Source: a virus (lineage: Duplodnaviria > Caudoviricetes). From it: a DNA stretch of 63,156 nucleotides. The position numbers were made by a program, and so were the translations under genes. The stretch is taken from positions 1 through 63,156 of IMG/VR virus record IMGVR_UViG_3300032236_000575. The stretch is one strand, 5' to 3'. Each line of letters begins with the position of its first letter. Position 1 is the first letter of the stretch. Shown piece after piece: positions 49,381 through 63,156 of this stretch. A model generated the notes under the pieces. The model was not told where the DNA came from. It saw nothing but the letters and a program-made list of their open reading frames with translations, and ran no database searches.

Positions 49381-49494
49381 CGACTTTCTCCCTTCTCTGG
49401 TTGGTACACCGTTCCAAATGGAACGATGCAAAAAACACGCTCTGACCTGCGTAAACGTCGCCGGCGAGAGGTGTTGTCCTACAACGAAATTGAG

Positions 49495-49574
49495 TGGAGC
49501 AGACGAGAATCGAACTCGCGTCCGGCCAGGTCCGCATGCGGATTTCATCTAGCCGTCGAAACCATCCCTGCCCC
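49495..49574 (-). ncRNA. Mini-tmRNA: tRNA-like domain only, no tag reading frame
   Basis: GGGGCAG/CTGCTCC-A acceptor stem with G3.U70; tmRNA-type GGTTTCGAC D-region; GGCTAG/CTGGCC helix; GGAC-GCGAG-TTCGATT-CTCGT T arm; 80 nt. Confidence 0.85.
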
Positions 49575-49588
49575 TTGCCAATAAGCAA

Positions 49589-49646
49589 GGCTCGCCCCGC
49601 CGCTCAACCTGCGGATTGGAGGACGCAGGGAACAGCGGGGCGAGCC
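49589..49646 (-). other. Two-stem hairpin just upstream of the mini-tmRNA; minus-strand loop UCCUCCAAUC
   Basis: GGCTCGCCCCGC/GCGGGGCGAGCC outer stem, CCTGCG/CGCAGG inner stem. Confidence 0.65.
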
Positions 49647-49738
49647 AGCTTGTCTCTATTCAGTTGTAGGCCAACGGTTTACACGTTGTGCCCCGACTCA
49701 GCAGGTGGGAGGTGGGCCTGCATGAGCCTGTCTAGCTT

Positions 49739-51348: not shown

Positions 51349-52431
51349 CTACCCGAACATCCTCTCAATCGCACTCACTGCCGGATCATCACCCTCGGGA
51401 CCGAGATGGCCGTACACACCGAACGTTGTCCGAATGTCGGTGTGCCCCAACCGTTTCTGAATCACCAAAGGTGGAACACCGGCAGCGATAAGCCACGAAG
51501 CGTGAGTGTGCCGAAGATCGTGGATACGGGGTTGACGGTGCGCCGGTAGGCCCGTGCGCTTCATCGCCGGATACCACACGTTCGTGCGGAACGTGCCAAT
51601 CCTAATCTGATCACCGCGAGTGTTCGTGAACACGAAAGGCTCAGTAAGACAGAGCATTTCGAGTAAGTCTTTGCGGATCTTGATCGTGCGTATCGACTGC
51701 GGTGTCTTCGTCGGGCCGCTGCGGTAGCCGCTCTGACCTCGCCGGAAGCTCTTGTTAATCCTGACCGTGCAGTTGTCGATGTTCACGTCAGCCGGTGTCA
51801 ACGCCACCGCTTCGCCGAAGCGCACGCCAGTCTCGGCCAAGAACGTCACCAACGTCTTGTAGTGATCCGGTATCGCATCGAGAACCTTGCCGAACTCATC
51901 ACGCGAAAGAAACACCGGCTCCGCCGTTTTCGACGTGCGTGCGATCTTCACACTCTTGGCCGGATTCGCGTTCATGTCACCGCGATCGACAGCGACGTTC
52001 AGAGCAGCCGACAGAAGACCGTGCCGGTTGGCGATCGTCTTGCTCGACACCGTGCCCTCTTGAGCTAGCACCCACCGTTCCACATCGGAACGTTGCAACT
52101 CCCGCGCCGGGATCTTTCCGATGCTTGGCCGGATGTCCTTACGCAGGATCGTGCGGTACTCATCGCGAGTGTCTTCATTGATGCCCGTGCGGTCCTCGAT
52201 GTACCGCTCGACCATGTCAGCCACTGTGGCGTTATTGCCCCTTCTACGCTCCGCTGACTGACGAATAGCGTCCAGGGCACCACGAGCACCCAACGTCTTG
52301 ATCAGATCCGAAAATCGTTCCGCCATATCCATAGTCGGGAACGTGGTCGATGACTCGCGCCCCTCGATGCGATAGCGAACATTGAATGTTGTTGTGCCGT
52401 CTTTGCTGCGGTGGACCCGTATGGATGCCAT
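51349..52431 (-). CDS. int: Tyrosine integrase
   Basis: TGVRFGEA (R), KTPQS.R (K), HDLRH, RLGH...TT.GVY catalytic residues. Confidence 0.97.
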   Translation of the reverse strand: MASIRVHRSKDGTTTFNVRYRIEGRESSTTFPTMDMAERFSDLIKTLGARGALDAIRQSAERRRGNNATVADMVERYIEDRTGINEDTRDEYRTILRKDIRPSIGKIPARELQRSDVERWVLAQEGTVSSKTIANRHGLLSAALNVAVDRGDMNANPAKSVKIARTSKTAEPVFLSRDEFGKVLDAIPDHYKTLVTFLAETGVRFGEAVALTPADVNIDNCTVRINKSFRRGQSGYRSGPTKTPQSIRTIKIRKDLLEMLCLTEPFVFTNTRGDQIRIGTFRTNVWYPAMKRTGLPAHRQPRIHDLRHTHASWLIAAGVPPLVIQKRLGHTDIRTTFGVYGHLGPEGDDPAVSAIERMFG

Positions 52432-52442
52432 GTGTACCTCTG

Positions 52443-52653
52443 TGTGGATAGCGGTGTGGAAACGATGTTTCTTGTCGCTTTTATCCCCTGCGAACTGCAG
52501 TTTTTAGTGGAGCTGCCGGGAATCGAACCTCGCACCTAACAGCGATGTTTTTGCAGGTAGAAGCCACACTACACCCCTCGCAACACCACTGCGATATCCA
52601 CATGTGTGCCGATGCGAGCAGGGACGATGCACATCGATGTGGATATATCCACA
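52443..52653. repeat. Putative integrase arm-type sites TGTGGAWA flanking the attP core
   Basis: Copies at 52443, 52455, 52595 (inverted), 52638 and 52646 (palindrome TGTGGATATATCCACA). Confidence 0.55.
52507..52529 (-). other. attP core matching the 3' end of an actinobacterial tmRNA (ssrA) gene
   Basis: Minus strand GGTTCGATTCCCGGCAGCTCCAC (T loop plus acceptor 3' strand), 75 nt upstream of int. Confidence 0.85.
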
Positions 52654-52748
52654 CGCGATCCCTGGCACCTACGAGTTTGCTTGCGCCCCTTCATCATTGG
52701 AAGTCGCAGCAATGTTCCTGGGAAAGCAAAGCAATTTGTGTTGGTGGT

Positions 52749-52775
52749 TTGACATCTCGCAAACGCGGGTAGTAT
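52749..52775 (+). promoter_or_regulatory. Rightward SigA-like promoter
   Basis: Perfect TTGACA at 52749; TAGTAT at 52770 (15-nt spacer, short) or TATCAG at 52773 (18-nt). Confidence 0.55.
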
Positions 52776-52782
52776 CAGCATT

Positions 52783-52857
52783 GCCCAGGCGATCTCCCCT
52801 CGTGGGCCAGTGTGAACAACTGATCTCCAATCATGGTGTTAGCAAGATCGCCTGGGC
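52783..52857 (+). ncRNA. Candidate antisense small RNA
   Basis: 13-bp perfect closing stem GCCCAGGCGATCT/AGATCGCCTGGGC; inner arm with loop TCTCCAA, complementary to the early-gene RBS. Confidence 0.6.
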
Positions 52858-52871
52858 CTACACTTCATCGG

Positions 52872-53051
52872 ATGAGCGACATCTGCCCTCGCTGCGGCGA
52901 GATCATCGACGGCTATCCGGCCCTCTCGCGAGTAGACAACAAGACCAACATCTGCAGCCCGTGCGGCATGCGAGAAGCGTTGTGGGACTTCGCGCATCGA
53001 GACACCAATGACCCCATGCCGCCGGTTGACCGGCCAATCGAAACTACATAG
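52872..53051 (+). CDS. Small zinc-finger protein (only credible plus-strand CDS)
   Basis: MSDICPRCG...YPALSRVDNKTNICSPCG.REA. Confidence 0.75.
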   Translation: MSDICPRCGEIIDGYPALSRVDNKTNICSPCGMREALWDFAHRDTNDPMPPVDRPIETT

Positions 53052-53070
53052 AAAACCTATGTATTAGGTT

Positions 53071-53131
53071 AAAAGAAAAGGGAGGTCCGGCGAGCAGCGT
53101 TCCATCTGGAACGAACCCACCGAACCTCCCC
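53071..53131 (-). terminator. Intrinsic terminator ending the early operon
   Basis: GGGAGGT.CGG...CCG.ACCTCCC stem; AAAAGAAAA on plus gives a U-tract on minus. Confidence 0.7.
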
Positions 53132-53139
53132 TATTCGAA

Positions 53140-53493
53140 TTAGCTTGGCGCGTAGAACTTTCCGATCATCGCCTCGATCATCGGATCGATCGACTTCGCC
53201 TCACCCTCGCTGTCCGCTCCTCCAGTGACGATCACCGTTCCAGAGAGCGTGTCTCGTCCGGCTGCCTCGGGCTGCAAGAAGTACCACAGAGCGGTGGCGT
53301 TCCTGTTGACCGGCAGACCCTCGATCTTGCCCTCTTCGTTGCACCACATGGTGACGTTGCTTGCCGGGTAGATGGCCTCAAGCCATCCTCCGACAGTGGT
53401 CTTCATTTTCTGGTACTCGGGCCGTTCCCACTCGGTGATCTCGATGTCTCCATCGACGGGGATGACAGCGACTTTGATTGTCTTGCTTGCCAT
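53140..53493 (-). CDS. DUF3846-family protein
   Basis: VGGWLEAI...MWCNEEGKIEGLPVNRNAT...L.G.VIVTG. Confidence 0.85.
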   Translation of the reverse strand: MASKTIKVAVIPVDGDIEITEWERPEYQKMKTTVGGWLEAIYPASNVTMWCNEEGKIEGLPVNRNATALWYFLQPEAAGRDTLSGTVIVTGGADSEGEAKSIDPMIEAMIGKFYAPS

Positions 53494-53581
53494 TTCGATT
53501 CTCCAATCATTGGTGTTTGCGCGGAACTGAATGTTCCAGTCGGCACACCGGGCGGTGAAACCCGATGTGCCGGTGCAGCAT

Positions 53582-53998
53582 TCAGTGCTGTACTACGTCG
53601 GCGTTGCGATACCGCCGCCCAACTGCAAGCAGAAACGCAACCTCCCTCGCATCAGCGACAGAATCACTGTATGCAATTACGCGGAAGTCATCGCGGCAAT
53701 CTTCGATCTGAACGGTGCCGTTGGCACCAGTAGCGAGCATGAAGCCCTCACCCTGGTCGAAGATGTAACAGTCACGGCAGATCCGCTCATCATTCTTGTA
53801 GAAGTAAAGCGGAGCATGATCGCCGCACTCACCGCAACCGTTGTCACAGTTCCTGCCGTCCAAAGCAAACGGATGCGTTGTATGGCAGTCAGGGCACCAG
53901 TACGGCTCTGCATCCGCACGCTGCTCTGCGTACATCTGCTCTGCCGACATGATCGGCTCTCCAGCCTCGTTGAGGTACTCGTTGACACCAAGCATCAT
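53582..53998 (-). CDS. Hypothetical Cys-rich protein
   Basis: GGGGAGGTG SD; CPDC, CGECG, CRDC. Confidence 0.65.
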   Translation of the reverse strand: MMLGVNEYLNEAGEPIMSAEQMYAEQRADAEPYWCPDCHTTHPFALDGRNCDNGCGECGDHAPLYFYKNDERICRDCYIFDQGEGFMLATGANGTVQIEDCRDDFRVIAYSDSVADAREVAFLLAVGRRYRNADVVQH

Positions 53999-54087
53999 CG
54001 AACACCTCCCCTGAGCATCAGAGCCAAGATGAACAGTGACCATACCGGCGTGAGAGCCAGCGAGGCCATGATCTCGTTCTTCTTCAT
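53995..54087 (-). CDS. Small membrane peptide (30 aa)
   Basis: MKKNEIMASLALTPVWSLFILALMLRGGVR, directly after a start-associated sequence; ATGA overlap. Confidence 0.65.
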   Translation of the reverse strand: MKKNEIMASLALTPVWSLFILALMLRGGVR

Positions 54088-54173
54088 TGTGATCTCCAAT
54101 CATGTTGTGTTACAGCGAGTCTGAGTGACTCAGCCAGCGCACAGGCCCGAAAGACTGTGCGCCGGAGCGTGAC

Positions 54174-54536
54174 TCAGTACTCCAGGTGCGAACCGTAGCT
54201 GCTGAAGTAGCGTTGCTCTGCAGCGACTTCGGCCTCGTACATGGCCTTCTGTTCTTCGTGCCAGTCGAGCTTCGCCAGCGTTTCCGCATCGACCTGGCTG
54301 CGATCGACTTCGTCAACTACGTTGCGCCCGTGGCACTCTTCGCAGGTCTTGTCATACATGCCTGAGCGGTAGTCCTCTGCGAAGTCGGGATCTTCATCGA
54401 AGTAGCGGTTGGGTACGCCGTTACTGAAGATGTCTTGAGTGCCGCCGCCGTTGCATGTTGGGCAGACGATCCTCACGCTGGGCAGGCGCAGTTCTTCCTG
54501 TCCGCCGTCTTCGGTGTCGATGGTTATCTCGATCAT
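54174..54536 (-). CDS. Hypothetical zinc-finger protein
   Basis: CPTCNGGG...CEECHG; AAGGGAG SD. Confidence 0.75.
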   Translation of the reverse strand: MIEITIDTEDGGQEELRLPSVRIVCPTCNGGGTQDIFSNGVPNRYFDEDPDFAEDYRSGMYDKTCEECHGRNVVDEVDRSQVDAETLAKLDWHEEQKAMYEAEVAAEQRYFSSYGSHLEY

Positions 54537-54838
54537 TTTGATTCTCCCTTGCTCTCAAGAACATTCGCCAAAGCGTCAACGAAACCGTTCTCCCATTCCT
54601 GGGCGACTTGCCGTGCATGCAGAACTGATTCAACCTCGCGGTACAGCATTGCTCGATCTTTGTTGATCGGGCATGCCGGTTGACGAGGATTCATCGCATA
54701 CACCTTGACGATTCGGTCTGGCTCGATGAGGTGTTCCTCGCCGGTCATGTCGAGCGTGATGTATGTAGCTCCGATGCCCTCTGCACGCTGTGCGCGTTTC
54801 GAGCCGTCTGGAAACATTGTGTCCCAGTCGAGTGTCAT
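54533..54838 (-). CDS. Hypothetical protein
   Basis: Start set by the start-associated sequence. Confidence 0.7.
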   Translation of the reverse strand: MTLDWDTMFPDGSKRAQRAEGIGATYITLDMTGEEHLIEPDRIVKVYAMNPRQPACPINKDRAMLYREVESVLHARQVAQEWENGFVDALANVLESKGESK

Positions 54839-54928
54839 GTGATCTCCAATCATTGTTGTGTTGAGACTGAGTAGCCTCACCCGCATGCATCGGCCCGAAA
54901 GACGATGCAGCGGAGCGGAACTCAGGCT

Positions 54929-55312
54929 TTAGCTCGCGATGAGCTTGGCCGTATGCGACAGCTTTGTAGCCGCCCACGTCCACTTGTGATGATCTGCAAG
55001 ACCGAGATCCCGCAGCACGCTCAAGCGGCTGCTCGCTGCGCTCTGAGAAATGTTGAGCAGCGTTGCAATGCCACGCGAGGTGATGCCATCGGGAAAAGCC
55101 TTGAGGACTTCAAGGGCTTCCAGATAGATCGTTCGCACGGGGATCATGCGCTGATCGTCGTCGCCGCCGGAAACAAGCTCCAGGGCGAACGGCTTCGACT
55201 CGGGAGCATCGTCCTTCTTGGTTCCCAGGTCGATCATCGAGCAGAGAGCGGAAAGCTCTTCAACGGTGTCAGTGCTTACTTCGATCCCGTTGATGTTGAT
55301 CTTGTATGACAT
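54929..55312 (-). CDS. Winged-helix HTH protein
   Basis: GITSRGIATLLNISQSAASSRLSVLRDLGL. Confidence 0.8.
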   Translation of the reverse strand: MSYKININGIEVSTDTVEELSALCSMIDLGTKKDDAPESKPFALELVSGGDDDQRMIPVRTIYLEALEVLKAFPDGITSRGIATLLNISQSAASSRLSVLRDLGLADHHKWTWAATKLSHTAKLIAS

Positions 55313-55397
55313 CTGATTACTCCAATCATGGTTGATGTGAGTCTGAGTGACTCAGCCAAACCACAGGCACCGAAGTGACTGTGGCCTGGAGCGTGAC

Positions 55398-55655
55398 TCA
55401 GACAGAATTGCTAGACCACTTGATGACCGCGAACTGCGCGATCACGGCGAGATCCTTTTCGAACTCGATGCTGTCATCGATGTCGAAGGAGAGATCCGCG
55501 ACTTGATGTTCATTTTCCGAGAGGGCGAAGGTGGTGCCCTTGGAGTGAGCCTGCGGCCAGCCGCGATTGACCAACGCAGCCTCGATGAGGTCGCGGTAGT
55601 CGATCGCGTCGGCTATGGGAGGAACCTGTGCCTCGACGTAGACACTTGTTGTCAT
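55398..55655 (-). CDS. Hypothetical protein
   Basis: Start set by the start-associated sequence. Confidence 0.7.
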   Translation of the reverse strand: MTTSVYVEAQVPPIADAIDYRDLIEAALVNRGWPQAHSKGTTFALSENEHQVADLSFDIDDSIEFEKDLAVIAQFAVIKWSSNSV

Positions 55656-55752
55656 GTTTCGATCTCCAATCATTGTTGTGATGTGAGGTGAGTACCTCAC
55701 CCAACGCACAGACCCGAAAGCCTGTGCGCTGGAGCGGAACTCACATCCCTAC

Positions 55753-56394
55753 TCAGGACTCGTTGACATCAGTGATCTCGTAGTCATCCCAGTAGTAGGT
55801 GTCGATGTTCTCAGTGACATAACTCGACGTATCGTTTTCCACGATGTCGCGAGCGGCATCCTTAGACGATGCCTCGACTTCGAACTCCACGTCATAGGTG
55901 ACTCGCACGGTGACGTTGTAGGTCCGCTTCAGACCGTCCAGGCCAAGGCCCGTCAACGCATCGTGCAATTCATCCCACTCGGCGGACTCATCATCGAGGT
56001 ACTGTTCCGCGTATTCGCGCAGAGTGCTCTGCACGTTGTTGCGGAAGGTCCGCAGATCATTCTCTGCCTTCTTCGCTACCTGCGAATTGGCCTGAGACAG
56101 AATGCATTTGTCTCCGAACTTCTCCAGCAGATCGATGACAACCTCGTTGTTGGTGACATCGGCTGAGCCGTCGAAGTTCTTCGACACGCGCCACTGCGAT
56201 TCGTCATCGACCGGAACGTAGTTGATTGACTTCGTTGTCTGGTTGTAGACGATGCCGGACCTTGTCTCACCGTCACCGACGTGGACGATCTTGCCGGTCC
56301 AGTAGCCGGTCACATCTTCGCCTCGTACCAACCGGGCACCAACGGGAAGACCGTCGATGACCTGAGCGAAGGTGGTGGTGGTGGTGATACTCAT
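55753..56394 (-). CDS. Hypothetical acidic protein
   Basis: Start set by the start-associated sequence; C-terminal Y.V.V....EVEA.S...A motif. Confidence 0.75.
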   Translation of the reverse strand: MSITTTTTFAQVIDGLPVGARLVRGEDVTGYWTGKIVHVGDGETRSGIVYNQTTKSINYVPVDDESQWRVSKNFDGSADVTNNEVVIDLLEKFGDKCILSQANSQVAKKAENDLRTFRNNVQSTLREYAEQYLDDESAEWDELHDALTGLGLDGLKRTYNVTVRVTYDVEFEVEASSKDAARDIVENDTSSYVTENIDTYYWDDYEITDVNES

Positions 56395-56486
56395 TTGATT
56401 CTCCAATCATGGTGTTTCGGGCTGTCGATTGAGCAACCCACTCAGCGCACAGACCCGAAAGCCTGTGCGCTGAAGTGCTGTTCAAT

Positions 56487-56939
56487 TCAGTGTGAATCGA
56501 TCTGCAAAAGGTGAACGCCGATGTCATCGTTTTCGAGAACTTCGATCGCCATCTGTTCCGGCGTGTACTCGTTCTCGTAGCCGTCGCGAAAGCCTGCGTC
56601 GGCCAGATCGCTGACACCGATGCCGTACTTACGCATCAGAACAGCGTTCACTTCTTCCATCCATTCTTCAAACGAAGTGTCGGACGCTCCGATGTAGCGC
56701 AGGTACAGAACCCCTTCGCGCACTGCGGCGCGATACTCTCCGCTGTGCAGTGGATTGGTGCCGCCCTTGCCTACGTTGATGGCAGACGCGTACTGATACG
56801 CGGTGCTTTTCGTCAGCTTCGCCGGATAGCGTGCCCAAGTCATCGGTTTCGCTTTCAGCTTTTCGGCAAGTTGCGATGACTGATTAACCCTTCCGCGCTT
56901 CTTCGATGCGGGAAGTTCGTCAACGAAAGTGAGCTTCAC
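56487..56939 (-). CDS. Hypothetical protein
   Basis: GTG start after the start-associated sequence; FVDELP...YRAAVR.G.LY.RY.G. Confidence 0.75.
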   Translation of the reverse strand: MKLTFVDELPASKKRGRVNQSSQLAEKLKAKPMTWARYPAKLTKSTAYQYASAINVGKGGTNPLHSGEYRAAVREGVLYLRYIGASDTSFEEWMEEVNAVLMRKYGIGVSDLADAGFRDGYENEYTPEQMAIEVLENDDIGVHLLQIDSH

Positions 56940-57031
56940 TTTTGATCTCCAATCATGTTGTGTGTTTGAGCCTGAGTGACTCACCCAACGCACAGACCGT
57001 TAAAGCCTGTGCGCTGGAGCGTGACTCAGAA

Positions 57032-57613
57032 TCACTTGTACTGCGTAACCTGCAGTCGATCGCCGTACTGAACCACGGCGATAAGCTCGCCGCTTTCATC
57101 AAGAAACTTCGACTTGAAGTCGGTGCCCTCGTTGCCGGTGTCATCGACCTGGAACACGATCACTTCACCAACCCTGGCAGCGTTTAACGCTCCCTGAATG
57201 ATGTCGCCCTCGTGAATGTCGAACGCCGGAACTGAACCCGTCGTCGGCCACAGGAACTCGTAGTGCTTACCAAGCGACTCCACGTCATACACGTCAGTGT
57301 TGATATGGAACCACTTGATGACTTCCTGCTTGCGGCCATGAAGCTCAATCTCTTGGATCTCGGCAGTGAACACTGCGTTGATCGCATCAGCGAGATCGAT
57401 CTTGTTCCTGACGGCCCACTCGGCATCGGGGAAGTAGTTGAGTACATCCCACGTCAGTTCGCTGTACTCGCTGTCGCTCTCGCGAGACTTGCGTCGGCCT
57501 GCGTCATCGACATCGATGTAGGCATCCGTTTCCCTGATGTGCGCCACGTCTTTGTGGAACGTGTGGCTCGTCAGGTACGAGATGGCATCGGTGCCAGTAA
57601 CGGTCTTGCTCAT
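57032..57613 (-). CDS. Hypothetical protein
   Basis: Start set by the start-associated sequence. Confidence 0.75.
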   Translation of the reverse strand: MSKTVTGTDAISYLTSHTFHKDVAHIRETDAYIDVDDAGRRKSRESDSEYSELTWDVLNYFPDAEWAVRNKIDLADAINAVFTAEIQEIELHGRKQEVIKWFHINTDVYDVESLGKHYEFLWPTTGSVPAFDIHEGDIIQGALNAARVGEVIVFQVDDTGNEGTDFKSKFLDESGELIAVVQYGDRLQVTQYK

Positions 57614-57702
57614 GTTGATCTCCAATCAATGTGTGTTGCGGAACTGAATGTTCCATAGGCGGCAGGGACTGTTGCGCCCCTGCCGCCGCGTGCAGCATTC
57701 AG

Positions 57703-57900
57703 CTATGCGGGTTGGAAGTTGAAGTACACCCTCGGTGAGTGTGTGAACTTCAGCGAGCCGGTGACACCGTCAGACTTGCGTTTGACGGCGACGAACGGAG
57801 CCATAAAACCTTGCACCACAAAGTCGCGTTGCAATGTTTCGGTGTCCCACGTTTCGCCTTCGGGCACGCTTCCATCGCTGTAATCGTGAACGTGAATCAT
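57703..57900 (-). CDS. Hypothetical protein
   Basis: WDT..LQRDF.VQGFMAPFV.V.RKSDG..GSL.F.HSPR.YF. Confidence 0.75.
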   Translation of the reverse strand: MIHVHDYSDGSVPEGETWDTETLQRDFVVQGFMAPFVAVKRKSDGVTGSLKFTHSPRVYFNFQPA

Positions 57901-57992
57901 TGAATGATCTCCAATCATTGGTGTTGTTTGAGTCTGAGTGACTCACCCGCATGCACAGGCATCGATGTGATGACTGTGCAGCGGAGCGCGAC

Positions 57993-58298
57993 TCAGGCTT
58001 GTCCGTAGATCGCCGCTACGATCTCGTCGCTGCTCTTCCCCGCGAGCAACATGTCGCGGATCTGAGCTTCTCTCTCCTCGGCCCTGGCATGCACGGCAGC
58101 GTTGTGCGCCGCCGTCTGCTGGGCACGCTGGCACACCGGGTAGTGCGGCCCGATTGCTTTGCCGTTTGCGCGGCCCTTAGTGCCAACCTGAGCGACGTAC
58201 CACTTGCCGTCCTTGCGTTGTTCCCAACGCACCTCGCGATCACCGCAGTCGCGGCACTCGTATCGGTTGCGGTCAAGCTTCTTCAGCTTCGACTCCAT
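57993..58298 (-). CDS. Hypothetical zinc-binding protein
   Basis: CRDCG...W...GKWY...H...C. Confidence 0.7.
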   Translation of the reverse strand: MESKLKKLDRNRYECRDCGDREVRWEQRKDGKWYVAQVGTKGRANGKAIGPHYPVCQRAQQTAAHNAAVHARAEEREAQIRDMLLAGKSSDEIVAAIYGQA

Positions 58299-58379
58299 GA
58301 TGAATCTCCAATCTGAGTTGTATCGATTGAGCAACTCACCCAACACACAGGCATCGCTGTCTGTGTGCTGGAGCGAAGC

Positions 58380-59234
58380 TCACTCGTCTTCGGCTTGCTT
58401 CCTGCTTGGCCGTCCGGCCTTCAGGATCTTGTTCACAGCGGCGAACACTTGCCGGATGTGCTTGTCTTGAACCTTGTCCTCATCGCCTGTCTGAGACAGC
58501 CAGTTCTGGATGTAGGCCCGTGACTCGGCAGCGTTCCAGTCGAGCAACTCGACTTCGTTCGCGATCAAGTACGCGACGGCCTCTGCCTGAAACTCGTGTA
58601 TCCCACGATGTGTCTGATACTCCGAAAGATTCTCTTTCGTTGTATGACCGAGAACGATGTGCGCGATCTCGTGGAACACCGTCTTCCAGGGATGCACAGC
58701 GACAGGGTTGATCGCGAACTTGCGATCGATGCTGTAACCCTGCGTGTTGCCATCGAGATGCTTGAAAGCAACCTTCGTGATGTCCAGTTGCTTCAGAGCA
58801 AGATCGAGATCCCAGTTGGGGATCTCAGGCCACTCGATCTCATCGCCGTCAGTCTGCGAGTAACCAAACACGGTTGCACGCGGCTTGAAGCCGATGAGGA
58901 TGCGTTGCTTCTTGCCTTGCTCATCGAGCAGAGGCTTACCGTTCTCATCCTTCTTGTCGATGATGAGAGGGTGAAGCACCGTCTTGGCTTTCTCGCCCTT
59001 ACGCACCTGCCGATCGAACTTCGTCTTCCAGAAGCCGTAGGGACCGATAGGTTCGTTCACACCTTGCAGCATGAGCCAGATCATGTTGGTGAACGAATAC
59101 TCGTAGAAGCGGCTGTAGGTGTCGCTCATCTTGCCGGGAGCTTTGAGTGCTTCCTCGATGAGCTTCCGCATATCAACCTCGGGAACGCTTGCGCGTGCCG
59201 TCTGCGTCTTGCGTGTCTTCGTGGCTGTAGCCAT
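58380..59234 (-). CDS. ArdC-like ssDNA-binding/antirestriction protein with zincin domain
   Basis: F.EYSF.N...L..Q, Y..WK...RQVRKGEKA, VF..SQT.G, HEIAH..L.H, E..AE.VAY, S..YI..W. Confidence 0.85.
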   Translation of the reverse strand: MATATKTRKTQTARASVPEVDMRKLIEEALKAPGKMSDTYSRFYEYSFTNMIWLMLQGVNEPIGPYGFWKTKFDRQVRKGEKAKTVLHPLIIDKKDENGKPLLDEQGKKQRILIGFKPRATVFGYSQTDGDEIEWPEIPNWDLDLALKQLDITKVAFKHLDGNTQGYSIDRKFAINPVAVHPWKTVFHEIAHIVLGHTTKENLSEYQTHRGIHEFQAEAVAYLIANEVELLDWNAAESRAYIQNWLSQTGDEDKVQDKHIRQVFAAVNKILKAGRPSRKQAEDE

Positions 59235-59712
59235 GTTGATGATCTCCAATCATTTGTGCCGTGAGCAATGCGGCTCTGATGCTCCGAAGCACCTTGCAAC
59301 ACGAATGCTGCAAGGCGATCGGTTCGCCAGAGAAACTGACAAACGAATGATTGGATTGGAGTTAAAGGATTCTGATTCAACCGCTACCTACACTGACCGG
59401 CCACAGTTATGACGATGTGTCCATCGTGTGCGCGAAGCACTCATGTGGTCTTACGGACGCGACTCGATTGCGTGAGTCGCACTTACTCTCGGGCGGGAAA
59501 CTCGCGAACCCTTGTATTGCACAGCACGGCCCATCGGATGCCTGGGTCTTATGTGTTGTCAGCAGTTGCTAAGCGATGGCTTCTGGGCCGGTCTTGTGAA
59601 CCGGGTGCTCCCGCGCCGGACGCACGCGATGCTGTTGTCCGCTCGACCGGCCTCCCCCTGCCGGGGGAATGGACCCGCTTTCGCTTCGGGCCGGTGGGTT
59701 GAGCTTCGCTCA

Positions 59713-59745
59713 ATCCTAGCACCCGGCACCTACAGCAACCAAGCA
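59713..59745 (-). promoter_or_regulatory. Possible leftward early promoter (extended -10 TGCTAGGAT)
   Basis: TTGGTT-N18-TAGGAT with TG extension; weak -35. Confidence 0.35.
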
Positions 59746-59883
59746 AAAAGATGGGAGCCTCCCAAAAGAGACTCCCAAATAGGCCATACGCTGGGCTTTT
59801 AGCCCTCCGCAAAAGGTGCCGGTAACCCTAAAGGCTAACGGCTCATATCCACATTTTCCACACTTTCGATCATGGACTAAAAC

Positions 59884-59936
59884 GAAATGCGTTGCGCTGC
59901 AATGGCTTTCATAACCACTGCGGCGCAACGCATTTC
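59884..59936 (-). terminator. Long hairpin directly after the exonuclease stop
   Basis: GAAATGCGTTGCGC...GCGCAACGCATTTC, then CGTTTT on minus. Confidence 0.65.
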
Positions 59937-59937
59937 A

Positions 59938-60702
59938 CTACAGAGCAGCAGATGTCGCTGCTTGAGATGACTTCACTTCTCTGCCCCACTTGCCGCAATC
60001 CTGGCACTGGAACCGGCGATACGTCCTCGTCGCGGACACCTGAACACCGCGCCACTGAATCGCCAAAGAGCTACAGTTCGAACAACAGATAAAAGCTGAA
60101 TCCTGTTGGAACGCAGCAAGATTCAAACCCTGAACCCAAGGAAGCATCTTGAAAAAGACGCGTTCCGTGAGATCCACGTCAGCCATGTTGTACTCCTGCA
60201 TGAGCCGCCGAGCATCTGAAAGTTCTTGTCCTGCAGCGTATCTCAGCTTGCGCCACAGATCGCCGCCGCCGGTTTCAAGTTTCACTCCGCAGCCCAATTG
60301 TTGAGCTACATAGTTCAGCCGGTTCGACATGTACTTGAAGTTCCTCTTGGCCGTGAGCATGAGATCGATGTCCTTATGGGGCGACGGTGGCCTCATCTCA
60401 AGCTCCGCCATCGCGGTCCTCAAGTGAGGACAGTCGAAGCCCTTGCTGTTCCAGCCGACGATGTAGTCGGCCTCATCGAACACCTTGTGCGCTTTCTCGA
60501 TCATCGCCTGGTGTCCACCTCGATCCCACTCCGCGTGGAAGTAGGTCTTGTCCTCACCAAGCCACTTGTATGCAAAGCAGATCGTGCGAGGCTTCTCAAC
60601 GATCTGATTGGGCTGCAGCCACGAGTGCTGCTTCAGTTCCCAGATGCCATCGACTACGCCGGATTGGCGTTCGATGTCGAGCACGCAGATTCGTGCCGTC
60701 AT
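59938..60702 (-). CDS. DnaQ-like/RNase H-fold 3'-5' exonuclease with C-terminal zinc ribbon
   Basis: VLDIE, VGWNSKGFD, DIDL, YN..DV.LTE, CSNC...CQDCG. Confidence 0.9.
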   Translation of the reverse strand: MTARICVLDIERQSGVVDGIWELKQHSWLQPNQIVEKPRTICFAYKWLGEDKTYFHAEWDRGGHQAMIEKAHKVFDEADYIVGWNSKGFDCPHLRTAMAELEMRPPSPHKDIDLMLTAKRNFKYMSNRLNYVAQQLGCGVKLETGGGDLWRKLRYAAGQELSDARRLMQEYNMADVDLTERVFFKMLPWVQGLNLAAFQQDSAFICCSNCSSLAIQWRGVQVSATRTYRRFQCQDCGKWGREVKSSQAATSAAL

Positions 60703-60722
60703 GCGGACCCTTTCCGTAGGGG

Positions 60723-61181
60723 TCAGTGCAACTTGTTCAGTGTTCTTGCGATCTTCTCTGTCTTCACAAGTGCGCGACAGTCCATGTATACCAACGTGCC
60801 GGTGAAGATCGCGGCAGCGATAACGATCGCCGCCGGATAGATGTGATAGTCACCAGTGCTCAATCTGAAGATCGTGTACGTCGTCAACGCGGTGAACTGT
60901 CCGAGGTCTGCTGCGAGTCGAAGCCAGAAGCCTCGATAGCGCACTGCTCCGCATCGATGCCGGATGAGATGCGATGCCAGTAGTGCAACCGGCGGACTGA
61001 TCAGTGACAGGCCGAGCCACACCCATTCCACCGTTCCGCCCGGTGTGTCCGTTGTTTCCGGCGGGATGTTCTCAAAGTCGCCCAGGCACAGCAGTACGAG
61101 TGCGGCAATCCATGTGGAGATGTACAGCAGAGGTTGCCATGCAAGATCAATCGTCTGCCGGTGCTCGCGAAGTCTGAGCAT
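60723..61181 (-). CDS. Multi-pass membrane protein (lysis cassette)
   Basis: About four hydrophobic helices. Confidence 0.7.
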   Translation of the reverse strand: MLRLREHRQTIDLAWQPLLYISTWIAALVLLCLGDFENIPPETTDTPGGTVEWVWLGLSLISPPVALLASHLIRHRCGAVRYRGFWLRLAADLGQFTALTTYTIFRLSTGDYHIYPAAIVIAAAIFTGTLVYMDCRALVKTEKIARTLNKLH

Positions 61182-61474
61182 TAATCTGTCCTCCTTGATA
61201 TGCGGCGCAGTTCGTCGCCGTCCATGCGTCCGGCTAGGAAGTCATCGACAGCGTCGGTGATGTCTTCAAGCTCGCCACGAAGCTTGCGGTTTTCCTCATC
61301 GAGGTTTCGGTTCAATCGTGAAACTCTTTCTGCAGCCTCAACCAAAAGATCAGCGGCCATCGCCCTGGCAGCACCACGCGAAGACCGTGCTGAAATCACG
61401 GCTGCGACAACAGCACCAAGACCGGACCCCACACCGGCATAAGCAAGAGCTTGTACTGTTTCGCTAGCTTTCAT
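61181..61474 (-). CDS. Membrane protein with coiled coil (lysis accessory)
   Basis: N-terminal TM helix plus coiled coil, after lysin B. Confidence 0.7.
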   Translation of the reverse strand: MKASETVQALAYAGVGSGLGAVVAAVISARSSRGAARAMAADLLVEAAERVSRLNRNLDEENRKLRGELEDITDAVDDFLAGRMDGDELRRISRRTD

Positions 61475-61502
61475 TCACACTGCACTTTCCGATAGAAGAT
61501 TG

Positions 61503-61550
61503 AAGGGGCGGAACCGCAAGCGGCCCACCAACGCTCGCGGTCCCGCCCTT
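61503..61550 (-). terminator. Hairpin after lysin B
   Basis: AAGGGGCGG...CCGCCCTT-type inverted repeat. Confidence 0.5.
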
Positions 61551-61569
61551 AAACCAAATGAAAGCCCGT

Positions 61570-62352
61570 TCAGGCCACAGGAGTCATCTCGCCCAAGCGC
61601 GACAGATACTCAATCGCAGGTCCGATGTCATAGTTGATGTGCTGCAGAGTCGGCGGTCCCGATGCGTAAAACTTCAAAGCATCGAACACGGCGAACACCA
61701 TTGCCGGAATCTCTTTCAATGGACTCTTCACCACTTCAAGAATCTCACTCGTCAAACTGCCTGTGCCGAACCACTTTTCGAACACCACGTTGTAGATCGC
61801 TGTGATGTCGTCACCGGCATCCGAGAGCGGAGTGTCGGTGTACATGTCGCCGGGATGAGCGAAGTCAAGCTGACGCGGATCAGTGTTCACGAACCTGTAC
61901 GGTGCGATGCCCCGCCCGGTCGGCATCGGCCAACCAAACATTGCATTCCCGTTAGCGACATTAGCCTCGCGGCAAGGGTTGCCGAAGGTTACGGTGCACT
62001 TCCACGAAGGCATGTAAGCCTCAAGATCGCCACCCGGCAACATCATCTGATAGATGTGATACCAGACGATCGCTGACTGAGAGTAGTAAACACCGCACCA
62101 CTCTTCACTCGGATTGCGAAGCTTGATCAACCGGACATGCTCTGCCACACCGGCATTCACCGACTTGTCCATCGGGTACGGCGCGGCGGGGTAGGCCACA
62201 GGCTGATGGAACCAGTGCCTATCCCCTACCGCCCTGCCGATGTCTGCCGGTGGGCCGGACCAGCAGTCCGCTCCCGTCCCTGGCATCGTGTAGATGGTGC
62301 GAACAAGGTTGCGCCTGCCATCGAGCGCAGCCTTGACATCCCACCAACTCAC
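61570..62352 (-). CDS. lysB: Lysin B (cutinase-like esterase)
   Basis: PGTG, YPAAPYPM..SV..G, YSQ, VTFGNP.R, GRGI, GD.Y, H..Y. Confidence 0.85.
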   Translation of the reverse strand: MSWWDVKAALDGRRNLVRTIYTMPGTGADCWSGPPADIGRAVGDRHWFHQPVAYPAAPYPMDKSVNAGVAEHVRLIKLRNPSEEWCGVYYSQSAIVWYHIYQMMLPGGDLEAYMPSWKCTVTFGNPCREANVANGNAMFGWPMPTGRGIAPYRFVNTDPRQLDFAHPGDMYTDTPLSDAGDDITAIYNVVFEKWFGTGSLTSEILEVVKSPLKEIPAMVFAVFDALKFYASGPPTLQHINYDIGPAIEYLSRLGEMTPVA

Positions 62353-62706
62353 CTACTGCCCCGGCTGAGTTTCGTTGATGCCCAACGCTTTCCGCACCTC
62401 GTCAGCAGGCTTACCCTCAACGAGAACGGCGAACAAACCTGACAGCATGTGCAACACGGTTTGGCCGTGATACTTCTTCGTCAGGATCTCCGCGAGCACG
62501 GTCAGTTGATCCAACCGGCTTGGACTCCACCACACCTCACCGGGCTGATGATTCGGATCAGCACCGGCATGGCGGTTCACCCAAGGATGACCGAGATCCC
62601 AGTCCTGGTACATCGTCACGCCGGACCACGGCAGAGGCGGATAGTTGGGCTGGTTAGGATCTCGACCGTCAAGCTGGCCGCGCACCTCGTCGTCAGGAGT
62701 TGCCAT
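62353..62706 (-). CDS. Hypothetical protein in lysis cassette
   Basis: Between lysin A and lysin B; GAGGA SD. Confidence 0.65.
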   Translation of the reverse strand: MATPDDEVRGQLDGRDPNQPNYPPLPWSGVTMYQDWDLGHPWVNRHAGADPNHQPGEVWWSPSRLDQLTVLAEILTKKYHGQTVLHMLSGLFAVLVEGKPADEVRKALGINETQPGQ

Positions 62707-63156
62707 TAAGTGTGTCCTCTACAGTTGCAATGATCGGCTCGTTCTTAGTAACGAAAACCGCTGCGCCAGTGAGGAAAGCGATCACAGCACCAATCGCATT
62801 GTCCCAACCGGCAGGAAGGTGACCACCGAGCATCGACTGCGAAGTCGCCAAGAATGTCGCAAGTCCGCCGCACAGCGCGACGATCGACTTCGCGTACTCG
62901 ACTGGCCTCATGTGCAGAGGGCTGCGAAGACGAGTACCCGAAACAGGCTGCACCGCAACACCTCCCGGCACCGCAGAAGCCGACACCGCAGCCAACGTCA
63001 CCGGCTTCGTGTTGTAGACGGCGTTCACCCTGTCGAGGACGGCCTGAGCCAACTTGATGTCGGCAGCCCTGTCGGGACTCTGCTTCGGATCAGCAGCCGC
63101 GATCTCTTTCAACAGCGTGTACGCGGCCTCGTCGCCACGGCTGGCAGCCCACTCCA
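62693..63156 (-). CDS. Lysin A 3' part ending in a holin-like two-TM domain
   Basis: In frame with 1-1384; YAKSIVALCGGLATFLAT...AIGAVIAFLTGAAVFVTKN. Confidence 0.85.
   Translation of the reverse strand, partial: EWAASRGDEAAYTLLKEIAAADPKQSPDRAADIKLAQAVLDRVNAVYNTKPVTLAAVSASAVPGGVAVQPVSGTRLRSPLHMRPVEYAKSIVALCGGLATFLATSQSMLGGHLPAGWDNAIGAVIAFLTGAAVFVTKNEPIIATVEDTLNGNS
63034..63156. repeat. Terminal direct repeat, identical to 1-123
   Basis: Exact match. Confidence 0.95.

What the first reader, a model, noticed from the sequence alone, without database searches (positions are those of the whole stretch)
53527..58382. Ten covarying hairpins divide the operon into gene cassettes
Seen: each junction has outer stem UGAGU/ACUCA (or CUGAAUG/CAUUCAG in two copies), a conserved asymmetric internal loop (CGCU opposite GUGAG/CUGAG in most), and an inner stem whose sequence varies while pairing is kept. 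G.U pairs and several UUCG-containing loops favour folding on the mRNA strand. In five copies the upstream UGA stop is part of the outer stem; the others start within ~8 nt of the stop. There are no U-tracts. Established analogues: T7 early RNase III sites and integron attC sites. Inference: a new structured RNA family for mRNA processing, stabilisation or antitermination, possibly also serving as recombination joints for cassette exchange.
Basis: partly seen in the sequence, partly recalled or inferred. Interest (0 to 1): 0.85.

Follow-up and report, generated by a model that had tools for sequence, protein, structure and literature searches.

The report
Repeated RNA hairpin junctions, phage operon
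In an uncultured temperate phage of actinobacteria, every gap between the genes of one accessory-gene operon holds the same module, a long RNA hairpin followed by a fixed ribosome-binding motif, which most likely cuts or stabilises the messenger RNA and standardises translation starts.

Summary
Ten ~60-nt hairpins lie on the minus (mRNA) strand between 53527 and 58383. They fill all 10 non-overlapping junctions of a 13-gene operon that has U-tract terminators at both ends. A covariance model finds exactly these ten in the 63-kb genome. Of 24 pairs, 14 show compensatory changes. G·U cells outnumber A·C cells 26 to 7, and the sense RNA is the more stable strand in 9 of 10 copies.

It follows every hairpin after a 12-19 nt CA-rich linker and sits 1-4 nt before the start codon.

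In layout the closest known thing is the SAS/ESAS pair of Cluster K and EF actinobacteriophages, whose function is unknown. A Cluster K control showed no sense-strand bias and carries a -35-like hexamer; this element does neither. In likely mechanism the closest analogue is the T7 early RNase III site.

No Rfam family matches. Outside the window I found one clear copy (L039) and one probable copy (L081). The integron-like recombination idea is not supported. No RNA data exist, so cleavage remains an inference.

The parts
58327..58383 (-). h10 hairpin between g1 (ArdC-like, 58380-59234) and g2. Its SAS-like 13-mer is at 58302-58314 and the start codon at 58298.
   Evidence: 69.3 bits; MFE -34.5, z -5.6; UGA stop 58380-58382 lies inside the outer stem.
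57934..57996 (-). h9 hairpin between g2 and g3. SAS 57905-57917, start 57900.
   Evidence: 66.7 bits; MFE -35.2; UGA stop inside the stem; SAS is an exact match.
57644..57702 (-). h8 hairpin (CUGAAUG/CAUUCAG type) between g3 and g4. SAS 57616-57628, start 57613.
   Evidence: 47.9 bits; MFE -40.3, z -7.1; SAS exact.
56972..57029 (-). h7 hairpin between g4 and g5. SAS 56943-56955, GUG start 56939.
   Evidence: 78.7 bits; MFE -36.1, z -6.4; SAS exact.
56429..56485 (-). h6 hairpin between g5 and g6. SAS variant 56397-56409, start 56394.
   Evidence: 69.6 bits; MFE -34.2; geometry.
55688..55744 (-). h5 hairpin between g6 and g7. SAS 55660-55672, start 55655.
   Evidence: 77.3 bits; MFE -37.7. About 95% identical over the stem columns to the L039 copy, by my count of 3 differences on the alignment.
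55343..55401 (-). h4 hairpin between g7 and g8 (weak winged-helix match). SAS variant 55316-55328, start 55312.
   Evidence: 68.5 bits; MFE -36.5; UGA stop inside the stem.
54867..54925 (-). h3 hairpin between g8 and g9. SAS 54840-54852, start 54838.
   Evidence: 65.6 bits; MFE -30.3, z -3.1; SAS exact.
54121..54177 (-). h2 hairpin between g10 and g11a (a 30-aa hydrophobic peptide, 53995-54087). SAS 54090-54102.
   Evidence: 76.8 bits; MFE -32.7; UGA stop inside the stem; small ORF.
53527..53585 (-). h1 hairpin (CUGAAUG/CAUUCAG type) between g11b (53582-53998) and g12 (DUF3846, 53140-53493). SAS variant 53497-53509.
   Evidence: 63.7 bits; MFE -36.9, z -6.4; UGA stop inside the stem; DUF3846 2.8e-23.
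59240..59252 (-). SAS 13-mer before the first gene g1, with no R1 hairpin upstream. It closes a ~500-nt untranslated leader (59235-59750).
   Evidence: Exact match; sequence context.
52821..52833 (-). Orphan SAS 13-mer downstream of the operon terminator, with no convincing gene behind it.
   Evidence: Exact match; context read.
59752..59777 (-). Canonical intrinsic terminator with a U-tract, upstream of the operon.
   Evidence: Terminator scan; fold -18.7 kcal/mol followed by UCUUUUUGCU.
53071..53130 (-). Canonical intrinsic terminator that ends the operon, followed by UUUUCUUUU.
   Evidence: Fold -44.3 kcal/mol, z -6.8; sequence.

Best explanation
The ten elements are the structured half of a repeated intercistronic RNA module. 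In order, the module is:
- the stop codon of the upstream gene, lying in or just before the outer stem;
- a hairpin of about 24-26 pairs with conserved non-canonical positions;
- a 12-19 nt CA-rich single-stranded linker;
- a 13-nt motif, TGATTGGAGATCA, that holds the Shine-Dalgarno core;
- 1-4 nt, then the start codon.

The module sits at every non-overlapping junction of one 13-gene operon of accessory genes. The first gene looks like the anti-restriction factor ArdC. The operon belongs to a temperate actinobacteriophage and is presumably transcribed as one RNA between two U-tract terminators.

Most likely mechanism (inferred): the hairpins act on the transcript, not on DNA. The host's double-strand-specific RNase III cuts at or near the conserved internal loop. 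The hairpin would then stay as a protective 3' end on the upstream cistron. Each downstream cistron would receive the same short leader and the same ribosome-binding motif, so every gene is expressed from a standard junction whatever the coding sequence is.

Shown here: the fold, the covariation, the strand bias, the register with stops and starts, the lack of promoter and terminator signals, and the operon limits.

Inferred: transcription as one unit, cleavage, the nuclease, and the effect on stability and translation.

My odds are about 0.6 that it is a post-transcriptional RNA element of this kind, and about 0.35 that RNase III cleavage in particular is the mechanism.
For: Structure:
- Ten of ten copies fold into the same shape, with z-scores of -3.1 to -7.1.
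- 14 of 24 pairs have changes on both sides, against 6.1 expected (0 of 500 shuffles reach it); with the L039 copy added the count is again 14 of 24.
- Loops vary (UUCG-containing, GCGA, 5-6 nt) while the stems stay paired. That fits a helix-reading factor rather than a loop-binding one.
- Non-canonical positions are kept while their neighbours covary. The bulged U at column 56 is present in 11 of 11 copies. Columns 13 and 58, left unpaired in the model, hold a purine in every copy: G in 10 of 11, and A in 8 and G in 3 of 11. Columns 10-62 do not form a standard pair in 8 of 11 copies.

Strand:
- 26 G·U cells against 7 A·C cells of 264.
- The sense RNA is more stable than the antisense in 9 of 10 copies.

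Placement:
- All 10 non-overlapping junctions of the operon carry the module. The 2 junctions without it are 4-nt gene overlaps.
- The spacers are only 81-97 nt and are filled by hairpin plus leader.

Not a promoter: no sigma-70-like site on the minus strand anywhere in 52500-63156.

Not a terminator: no U-tract follows any hairpin, whereas the operon's two ends have hairpins with U-tracts.

Anatomy compared with T7: the T7 intergenic regions where I recall the RNase III sites to lie fold into lower stem, internal loop and upper stem. In two of them the upstream UGA stop lies in the lower stem, and the T7 early operon also starts with an anti-restriction gene.

Relatives:
- L039 carries one copy (72.6 bits) between genes with no detected similarity to any window gene, followed by that lineage's own leader motif.
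- L081, whose exonuclease subunit is 37% identical, carries a 32.5-bit copy with the same outer stem, an unrelated but paired inner stem, a linker, GGAGAGAUCA and a start codon.
- L061 and L039 place tRNA-like structures at the equivalent position. That points to RNA processing at these junctions as a lineage habit.
Against: - No RNA evidence of any kind. No RNA run holds the sequence, so no transcript end, cleavage site or operon transcript has been seen.
- The predicted chance that the GGAG core is unpaired ranges from 0.17 to 0.82 across copies. A simple 'keeps the ribosome site open' role is therefore not evident.
- The lower stem and internal loop are conserved in sequence well beyond what a generic double-stranded RNA substrate needs. 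The L039 copy is about 95% identical to h5 by my count, while the shared exonuclease gene gives tblastx pieces of about 61-69%. That suggests sequence-specific recognition by an unknown protein, or recent transfer.
- One exact 13-mer (52821-52833) has no gene behind it. A pure ribosome-binding role does not explain this.
- In Cluster K phages the layout-equivalent ESAS is now read as a promoter plus operator (PMC11373665, passages).
- The covariation comes from 10-12 related copies, mostly in one genome.
Confidence: 0.55

Rival explanations
1. An uncut RNA element for translation handling. The hairpin stays intact. It blocks exonucleases and isolates each ribosome-binding motif from upstream coding sequence. 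Because the stop codon sits in its base, a terminating ribosome melts the lower stem and frees the downstream Shine-Dalgarno core. That would couple translation of neighbouring genes.
For: - The stop codon lies inside the outer stem in 5 of 10 copies and 0-8 nt before it in the rest.
- A short CUC or UUCC right after the stem (8 of 10 linkers, my reading) is complementary to the GGAG core. It pairs with the core in the MFE folds of h3, h4 and h5.
- The 13-mer can form a 5-7 bp mini-hairpin with GGA in the loop.
- The strand bias and covariation listed for the main reading apply here too.
Against: - The proposed anti-Shine-Dalgarno pairing is only 3-4 bp and absent in h6.
- Its covariation could not be tested.
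- A hairpin of -30 to -40 kcal/mol is far more than coupling needs.
- There are no ribosome or RNA data.
Confidence: 0.15
2. DNA-level regulatory sites like the Cluster K ESAS. Each junction would be a promoter and/or an operator for a dimeric phage regulator, for example the weak winged-helix candidate g8. Each gene would then be its own repressible unit.
For: - The layout equals SAS plus ESAS (PMC3203893, passages).
- ESAS in Adephagia is read as a SigA-like promoter with an inverted-repeat operator (PMC11373665, passages).
- The lower stem holds the near-palindrome CTGAGTGACTCAG on the DNA.
- An orphan 13-mer exists without a gene.
- g8 gives helix-turn-helix matches, all below the Pfam cut-offs (MarR_2 25.6 bits against 27).
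Against: - No promoter-like site at any junction.
- Compensatory changes in a variable inner stem are not expected for a protein-read palindrome.
- G·U cells outnumber A·C cells 26 to 7, and the sense strand is more stable in 9 of 10 copies.
- In the Cluster K control (Anaya) the ESAS palindromes carry TTGACA, and the antisense fold is the more stable in 6 of the 7 sites I classed as ESAS by eye.
Confidence: 0.1
3. Factor-dependent pause or termination signals read through by a phage antiterminator. Under this reading the hairpins meter how far transcription runs into the operon.
For: - They are strong hairpins at every junction of one operon.
- Some authors hold that actinobacteria use terminators without U-tracts; this is recalled, not checked here.
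Against: - The same phage uses ordinary U-tract terminators at the operon's ends.
- Ten serial terminators would silence the distal genes.
- No antiterminator was recognised among the operon's proteins.
Confidence: 0.07
4. Recombination joints or a small mobile element. The repeats would exist mainly because they mediate gene-cassette exchange (integron-like) or spread by themselves (REP- or MITE-like).
For: - The L039 copy sits between genes with no detected similarity to any window gene, yet is about 95% identical to h5 by my count.
- Only 1 of 12 operon proteins queried has a homologue in the 143 fetched loci searched, so the gene content is fluid.
- An actinomycete genome (G095) carries about 16 places (32 BLAST rows counting both strands) of an unrelated 76-nt hairpin repeat, so such dispersed repeats exist in the host phylum.
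Against: - The integrase is not an integron integrase (61.6 bits against 265).
- All copies have one orientation and a fixed register with stop codon and ribosome site. A self-spreading element would not keep that.
- No target duplications or variant gene orders were seen.
- Homologous exchange at repeats may still happen as a by-product.
Confidence: 0.07

Closest known systems
Start-Associated Sequences and Extended SAS (SAS/ESAS) of Cluster K mycobacteriophages and Cluster EF Microbacterium phages (PMC3203893, PMC7302621, PMC11373665, PMC12699233; passages read)
   Same: - A 13-nt asymmetric motif with the Shine-Dalgarno core flanked by short inverted ends: GGG...CCC in those phages, TGAT...ATCA here.
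- The motif lies a few nt before start codons, in one orientation and in about a dozen copies.
- It is confined to non-structural genes with unusually long spacers.
- An imperfect inverted repeat lies directly upstream.
- The host phylum matches, and Cluster K is likewise temperate with tmRNA-site integration.
   Different: - No sequence similarity to either published motif.
- The inverted repeat here is a hairpin of about 24-26 pairs, not two 15-17-nt repeats.
- It shows compensatory changes and a sense-strand G·U bias, whereas Pope et al. saw no support for RNA pairing.
- My Anaya control showed no sense bias and found TTGACA inside the repeats.
- No promoter-like hexamers here.
- Here the module fills every junction of one operon.
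RNase III processing sites of the phage T7 early operon (R0.3, R0.5, R1, R1.1, R1.3; names, positions and biology recalled, not annotated in the record fetched)
   Same: - Repeated hairpins at successive gene junctions of a polycistronic operon that starts with an anti-restriction gene.
- The shape is lower stem, internal loop, then upper stem with a variable loop.
- The upstream UGA stop lies in the lower stem in some copies.
- No U-tract follows.
   Different: - The T7 hairpins fold at -18 to -26 kcal/mol within 69-86 nt intergenic stretches, with upper stems of 9-13 bp. Those here are about 57-63 nt at -30 to -40 kcal/mol, with upper stems of about 15 bp.
- T7 has no fixed ribosome-binding motif after each site.
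- The host is different.
- Cleavage is untested here.
REP/BIME-type intercistronic hairpins that stabilise upstream mRNA in enterobacterial operons (recalled)
   Same: Repeated GC-rich hairpins in intercistronic spacers, which can protect the upstream cistron from 3' exonucleases.
   Different: REP elements are chromosomal, number in the hundreds, occur in both orientations and are tied to a dedicated transposase. These are phage-borne, face one way, and are locked to stop and start codons.
Integron attC sites (features recalled)
   Same: An imperfect hairpin with conserved outer arms, unpaired conserved bases and a variable inner part, one per promoterless gene.
   Different: - No integron integrase is present.
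- The outer arms are CUGAGU/ACUCAG, not the attC core sites.
- The favoured strand is the mRNA sense strand.
- Each hairpin is coupled to a ribosome-binding motif.

Membership tests
SAS/ESAS of actinobacteriophages | A conserved asymmetric 13-nt motif holding the Shine-Dalgarno core, a few nt before start codons, in one orientation and many copies | tested here: met
   12 matches with up to 2 mismatches against 1.68 expected (0 of 100 shuffles reach 12). The 8 matches with up to 1 mismatch are all on the minus strand. GATTGGAG is invariant in the 10 junctions. The motif ends 1-4 nt before the start.
SAS/ESAS of actinobacteriophages | [quoted passage not shown] | tested here: met
   All near-exact copies lie between 52.8 and 59.3 kb. 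Spacers are 81-97 nt. Structural genes lie at about 5-32 kb.
SAS/ESAS of actinobacteriophages | An imperfect inverted repeat immediately upstream of the SAS | tested here: met
   Present at 10 of the 11 gene starts that carry the 13-mer. It is much longer than the published 15-17-nt repeats.
SAS/ESAS of actinobacteriophages | Sequence agrees with the published consensus (Cluster K or EF SAS; subcluster repeat consensus) | tested here: not met
   The motif here is TGATTGGAGATCA. The published ones are GGGATAGGAGCCC and GGGAAAGGACCCC. The Anaya repeats read are unrelated in sequence.
SAS/ESAS of actinobacteriophages | The repeat contains SigA-like -35 and -10 hexamers and behaves as a DNA palindrome (no RNA-type compensation) | tested here: not met
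   No promoter-like site on the minus strand. 14 of 24 pairs are compensatory. G·U 26 against A·C 7. In Anaya the repeats hold TTGACA and the antisense fold is the more stable in 6 of the 7 sites I classed as ESAS.
T7-type RNase III processing site | A hairpin of about two helical turns with an internal loop, at a gene junction of a polycistronic phage operon | tested here: met
   24-26 pairs per copy, with a conserved internal loop. The operon is bounded by terminators.
T7-type RNase III processing site | Cut by RNase III in vivo and in vitro | not testable with these tools
   No RNA run holds the sequence. Enzyme assays are needed.
Integron gene cassette / attC | An integron-type integrase next to the array | tested here: not met
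   The integrase at 51349-52431 scores 61.6 bits on TIGR02249 (cut-off 265) and 26.2 bits on NF011946 (cut-off 435). It is a generic phage integrase by Pfam.
Integron gene cassette / attC | Cassettes vary in order and presence between relatives, with breakpoints at the sites | tested here: inconclusive
   Only 1 of 12 operon proteins queried has a homologue in the 143 loci searched. No relative is close enough to compare gene order. The contigs laid show no variant.
Intrinsic (rho-independent) terminator | A GC-rich hairpin followed directly by a U-tract | tested here: not met
   None of the ten is listed. What follows them is CA-rich. The true operon ends do show U-tracts.
Any Rfam 15 family | A match to a curated covariance model | tested here: not met
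   The whole window at gathering score gives only a tmRNA-like hit elsewhere. The stretch 53000-59900 at E<=1 gives 0 matches.
REP/MITE-type dispersed repeat | Copies in both orientations at unrelated intergenic sites | tested here: not met
   10 of 10 copies face one way inside one operon, in fixed register with stop and start.

The most novel reading that the evidence does not exclude
This actinobacteriophage lineage may use interchangeable structured-RNA 'punctuation marks' between accessory genes. Long hairpins would be made for RNase III, and tRNA-like minihelices for RNase P or Z. Each is followed by a lineage-specific fixed ribosome-binding leader. Any newly acquired gene would then be cut out of the operon transcript and translated from a standard part. 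This would be a natural counterpart of the insulator parts of synthetic biology and of mitochondrial tRNA punctuation. The shared junctions would also serve as the homology through which genes are swapped between phages. It would also mean that the SAS/ESAS puzzle, open since 2011, has an RNA-level answer in at least some phages.
Probability: 0.2. Interest if true: 0.8.

Novelty: new variant of a known kind. Interest (0 to 1): 0.55.

Why it matters
SAS/ESAS-type repeats have been catalogued in actinobacteriophages since 2011 without a known function. The passages I read lean towards DNA-level promoters and operators.

This element has the same layout but carries clear marks of RNA structure: compensation, G·U strand bias, and conserved non-canonical positions. 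It occupies every junction of one terminator-bounded operon. That makes it a clean, short and portable test object of about 90 nt. The question it can answer is whether such phage junction repeats act by mRNA processing and standardised translation.

If they do, it explains how phages express long strings of unrelated small accessory or anti-defence genes evenly. It would also give a ready-made intercistronic part for actinobacterial genetics.

If the element proves to be an ordinary RNase III site, it is still a new RNA family, absent from Rfam.

Tried and rejected
- RNA expression data: no RNA holder is listed for 53000-59500. Laying the three DNA contig sets gave one identical contig, which may be the source, plus 18-39-nt stray matches. 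No joints or variants appeared.
- More family members by DNA pattern in IMG/VR:
  - 37 loci, of which only L039 is confirmed by the model;
  - L039 only;
  - (CUGAAUG type): 0 loci;
  - (leader plus 13-mer): 23 loci, each with a single chance 13-mer and 0 model hits;
  - 1 extra locus at 10.6 bits;
  - 6 loci with 0 model hits.
- JGI metagenome scan: 3 loci, none real. The best, at 26.4 bits, lies among tRNA genes.
- GenBank phages by blastn: no match. Plasmids: one chance hit at E = 0.8. Megablast of the 6-kb region against phages: none.
- All 80 loci around exonuclease-subunit relatives were scanned with the model. Only L081 matched, at 32.5 bits.
- 151 actinomycete genomes: 3 had hits of 27-31 bits, which look like generic GC-rich hairpins. 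Three further genomes gave nothing.
- The ArdC-like protein as a query for related loci found none.
- Ribozyme or other known RNA: no Rfam match. The shape is a plain hairpin.
- ssDNA promoter of the plasmid leading-region kind: considered because the operon encodes ArdC-like and DUF3846 proteins. Rejected because the fold favours the sense strand, not the template strand, and the virus is a tailed dsDNA phage.
- Host identification from the attachment site: the 34-nt stretch had no exact match. This is only weak support.
- Earlier findings of this scan were not open.
- Supplementary figures of the SAS/ESAS papers, which hold the site alignments, could not be seen. They may bear on how much hairpin potential other ESAS have.

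Full report
**What the window is.** The 63,156-nt window is a complete IMG/VR virus record with direct terminal repeats.
- Almost all long ORFs lie on the minus strand.
- PHROG scans identify terminase, portal, major head protein, tape measure and tail proteins at about 5-32 kb. They also identify a primase/helicase, a DNA polymerase exonuclease subunit (59938-60702), an endolysin and a tyrosine integrase (51349-52431).
- The portal protein matches 547 phage records. The ten named host groups (542 records) are all actinobacterial, and the best identity is 51%, to Mycobacterium phages such as Fruitloop and Ardmore.
- Exonuclease-subunit relatives at about 49% identity are Mycobacterium phages.
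- Next to the integrase lies a tmRNA-3'-end-like stretch. A 25-nt form of it occurs mostly in Actinomycetota genomes.
- I therefore treat the virus as a temperate actinobacteriophage with about 56% G+C.

**The observation.** Reading 53000-59000 shows that the genes are on the minus strand and that each spacer contains a long inverted repeat.
- Folded as minus-strand RNA, the ten spacers give the same shape. MFE is -30.3 to -40.3 kcal/mol and z-scores are -3.1 to -7.1.
- The common architecture is as follows (alignment and column counts):
  - an outer stem of 6-7 pairs, CUGAGU/ACUCAG-like in eight copies and CUGAAUG/CAUUCAG in h1 and h8;
  - columns 10-62, which do not form a standard pair in 8 of 11 copies, mostly C·C or U·U by my reading of the alignment;
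  - two pairs that covary (A-U, C-G, G·U);
  - columns 13 and 58, left unpaired in the model, which hold a purine in every copy (G in 10 of 11; A in 8 and G in 3 of 11);
  - an invariant C-G pair;
  - an invariant bulged U (11 of 11);
  - an upper stem of about 15 pairs whose sequence varies;
  - a variable loop, UUCG-containing in five copies and GCGA in one.
- A covariance model (R1) run over the whole window with filters off finds exactly these ten at 47.9-78.7 bits on the minus strand. The same places score 18.4-36.4 bits on the plus strand. Nothing else exceeds 17.6 bits.
- On the MAFFT alignment, 14 of 24 pairs change on both sides (6.1 +/- 1.8 in shuffles, 0 of 500). 87.1% of cells pair, against 75.5% shuffled and 29-51% with slid partners.
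- Adding the L039 copy gives 14 of 24 pairs again, and 29 compensatory cells.
- Caveat: the copies are paralogues and the structure came from these sequences, so the controls are generous.

**RNA or DNA.**
- In the consensus structure, 206 of 264 cells are Watson-Crick and 26 are G·U. Only 7 are A·C, which would be G·U on the other strand.
- The sense RNA is more stable than the antisense in 9 of 10 copies; h9 is the exception.
- A palindrome read by a protein on double-stranded DNA should show no such bias and no compensated variation of its inner half.
- As a control I took the Cluster K phage Anaya. It has 16 plus-strand SAS sites. Its ESAS palindromes contain TTGACA. In 6 of the 7 sites I classed as ESAS by eye, the antisense fold is the more stable.
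- The window's elements therefore behave differently from the published ESAS.

Each hairpin is followed by three things in order:
- a 12-19 nt CA-rich linker;
- a 13-nt motif, TGATTGGAGATCA, in which GATTGGAG is invariant in all ten;
- 1-4 nt, then the start codon.

The motif has 12 matches with up to 2 mismatches, against 1.68 expected (0 of 100 shuffles). The 8 matches with up to 1 mismatch are all on the minus strand between 52.8 and 59.3 kb. Two exact copies have no R1 hairpin. One precedes the first gene of the operon (59240-59252). The other is an orphan at 52821-52833 with no convincing gene behind it.

**The operon.**
- Upstream, after the exonuclease gene, lie two hairpins followed by U-runs (59884-59936 and 59752-59777), then a ~500-nt untranslated stretch.
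- Downstream of the last gene lies a -44.3 kcal/mol hairpin followed by UUUUCUUUU (53071-53130).
- Between these limits are 13 genes:
  - g1: ArdC-like; the ArdC N-terminal domain scores 23.5 bits against a cut-off of 22.6, and a PHROG anti-restriction family matches at 4.8e-13;
  - g2-g7: small proteins of unknown function;
  - g8: helix-turn-helix matches, all below the Pfam cut-offs;
  - g9 and g10: overlap by 4 nt;
  - g11a: a 30-aa hydrophobic peptide, overlapping g11b;
  - g12: DUF3846 (2.8e-23).
- All 10 non-overlapping junctions carry the module. The 2 junctions without it are the overlaps. Spacers are 81-97 nt and are filled by the module.
- No sigma-70-like promoter is found on the minus strand in 52500-63156.

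**Elsewhere.**
- Rfam has no match.
- IMG/VR pattern scans followed by model scoring give one clear further copy, L039 at 72.6 bits. By my count on the alignment it differs from h5 at 3 of 57 stem columns.
- tblastx found no similarity between the genes flanking the L039 hairpin and any window gene. The shared exonuclease gene gives pieces of about 61-69% identity.
- The L039 copy is followed by that phage's own leader motif, CAACACAATTGGAAGGGA, which occurs three times in L039 and two or three times in L061.
- Among all 80 loci around exonuclease relatives, only L081 (37% identical) matches, at 32.5 bits. It has the same CUGAGU/ACUCAG outer stem, an unrelated paired inner stem, a 14-nt linker, GGAGAGAUCA and a start codon.
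- Nothing convincing turned up in GenBank phages, plasmids, the JGI metagenome scan or 151 actinomycete genomes.
- Only 1 of 12 operon proteins queried has a homologue in the 143 fetched loci searched (g6 in L061, 33%).

**Junction structures in relatives.** L061 (three copies) and L039 (one copy) carry a tRNA-like element in the same position, between a stop codon and the leader motif.
- It has a 7-bp acceptor-like stem, an inner arm, and a 5-bp arm with a UUCGACU loop stacked on the acceptor strand.
- 3 of the 5 pairs in that arm show compensatory changes among the four copies.
- ARAGORN (run on L061) and Rfam (L061 and L039) do not call them.
- The window has an 83-nt tmRNA-like acceptor/T-arm domain without the coding part, lying in a 357-nt spacer.
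- This suggests, by inference only, that structured substrates of host RNA-processing enzymes at gene junctions are a habit of this lineage.

**Mechanism.** I commit to a post-transcriptional RNA module.
- The operon is read as one RNA.
- The hairpins are recognised as helices with a specific internal loop, most simply by host RNase III.
- Cutting near the loop would leave the hairpin on the upstream cistron and a uniform leader with the 13-mer on the downstream one.
- The T7 early operon is the model. Its intergenic stretches fold into lower stem, internal loop and upper stem, with the UGA stop in the lower stem of two of them, and the operon begins with an anti-restriction gene. That these stretches hold the RNase III sites is recalled, not annotated in the record.

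Points against this reading:
- There are no RNA data at all.
- The GGAG core is predicted unpaired with probability of only 0.17-0.82.
- Sequence conservation of the lower half exceeds what a generic RNase III substrate needs.
- The orphan 13-mer is unexplained.
- Cluster K ESAS is currently read as promoter plus operator.

The rivals, with my odds and their tests, are listed in the Rival explanations section: an uncut insulator or coupling device, DNA operator or promoter, factor-dependent termination, and recombination joints.

**Comparison with known systems.**
- In layout the module is a SAS/ESAS pair, as described for Cluster K and EF actinobacteriophages (passages of PMC3203893, PMC7302621, PMC11373665 and PMC12699233).
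- It fails the sequence feature and the promoter/DNA-palindrome feature of that family.
- In likely action it resembles T7 RNase III sites, but cleavage cannot be tested here.
- It is not an attC site: the integrase scores 61.6 bits against 265.
- It is not an intrinsic terminator, not an Rfam family, and not a REP/MITE-type repeat.
- Literature searches for such hairpin-plus-RBS junctions returned only the SAS/ESAS papers. I read passages, not whole papers, and supplements were closed.

**Verdict.** This is a real, non-random, strand-specific RNA structure family coupled to a fixed ribosome-binding motif. It is a new variant of the SAS/ESAS kind of phage junction repeat, and unlike the published examples it carries clear RNA signatures. 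Its function is inferred, not shown.

Noticed in passing
window 49492-49574 (-): An 83-nt tmRNA-like element scores 59.4 bits on Rfam tmRNA (gathering score 47). It has the acceptor stem and T-arm, but 302 model positions, including the coding part, are replaced by 11 nt. It lies on the sense strand in a 357-nt spacer (49381-49737), after a long hairpin. ARAGORN calls nothing here.
   Followed up: partly
window ~52505-52545 (-): A tmRNA-3'-end-like stretch lies about 75 nt upstream of the integrase gene and is probably the attP core.
   Followed up: partly
window 52821-52833 (-): An exact copy of the 13-nt motif lies downstream of the operon terminator, with no hairpin and no convincing gene; at most a 14-codon frame follows it. 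On the other strand it abuts the ATG of a 72-aa ORF (52833-53051).
   Followed up: no
L061 ~18452-18528, ~17802-17878, ~15052-15128 (-); L039 1362-1436 (+): tRNA-like junction elements (7-bp acceptor-like stem, inner arm, 5-bp arm with UUCGACU loop) lie between a stop codon and the leader motif. 3 of the 5 pairs in that arm covary among the four copies. Neither ARAGORN (L061 only) nor Rfam calls them.
   Followed up: partly
window 53995-54087 (-) and 53582-53998 (-): The ORF listed as 53582-54103 is really two genes. One is a 30-aa hydrophobic peptide behind the 13-mer. The other is a 138-aa protein with its own GGGGAGGTG ribosome site, and its ATG overlaps the peptide's TGA.
   Followed up: yes
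window 59235-59750 (-): A ~500-nt untranslated, GC-rich, structure-prone stretch lies between a U-tract terminator and the first gene of the operon. It presumably holds the operon's promoter and regulatory leader. No sigma-70-like promoter was found in it.
   Followed up: no
L081 13155-13218 (-): A probable distant member of the hairpin family (32.5 bits) occurs in a phage whose exonuclease subunit is only 37% identical. It has the same outer stem and a different paired inner stem, followed by GGAGAGAUCA and a start codon.
   Followed up: partly
G095 (unnamed actinomycete genome), e.g. L277-L280: A 76-nt hairpin repeat occurs at about 16 places (32 BLAST rows counting both strands) at 88-100% identity, dispersed over two contigs. 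It is a REP- or MITE-like host element that scores 28 bits on the phage hairpin model.
   Followed up: partly
window 24849-29315 (-): A 1488-aa protein combines matches to head-maturation-protease/MuF-like families, a zinc-finger protease family and further domains of unknown function. It is a large polyvalent protein next to the portal gene.
   Followed up: no
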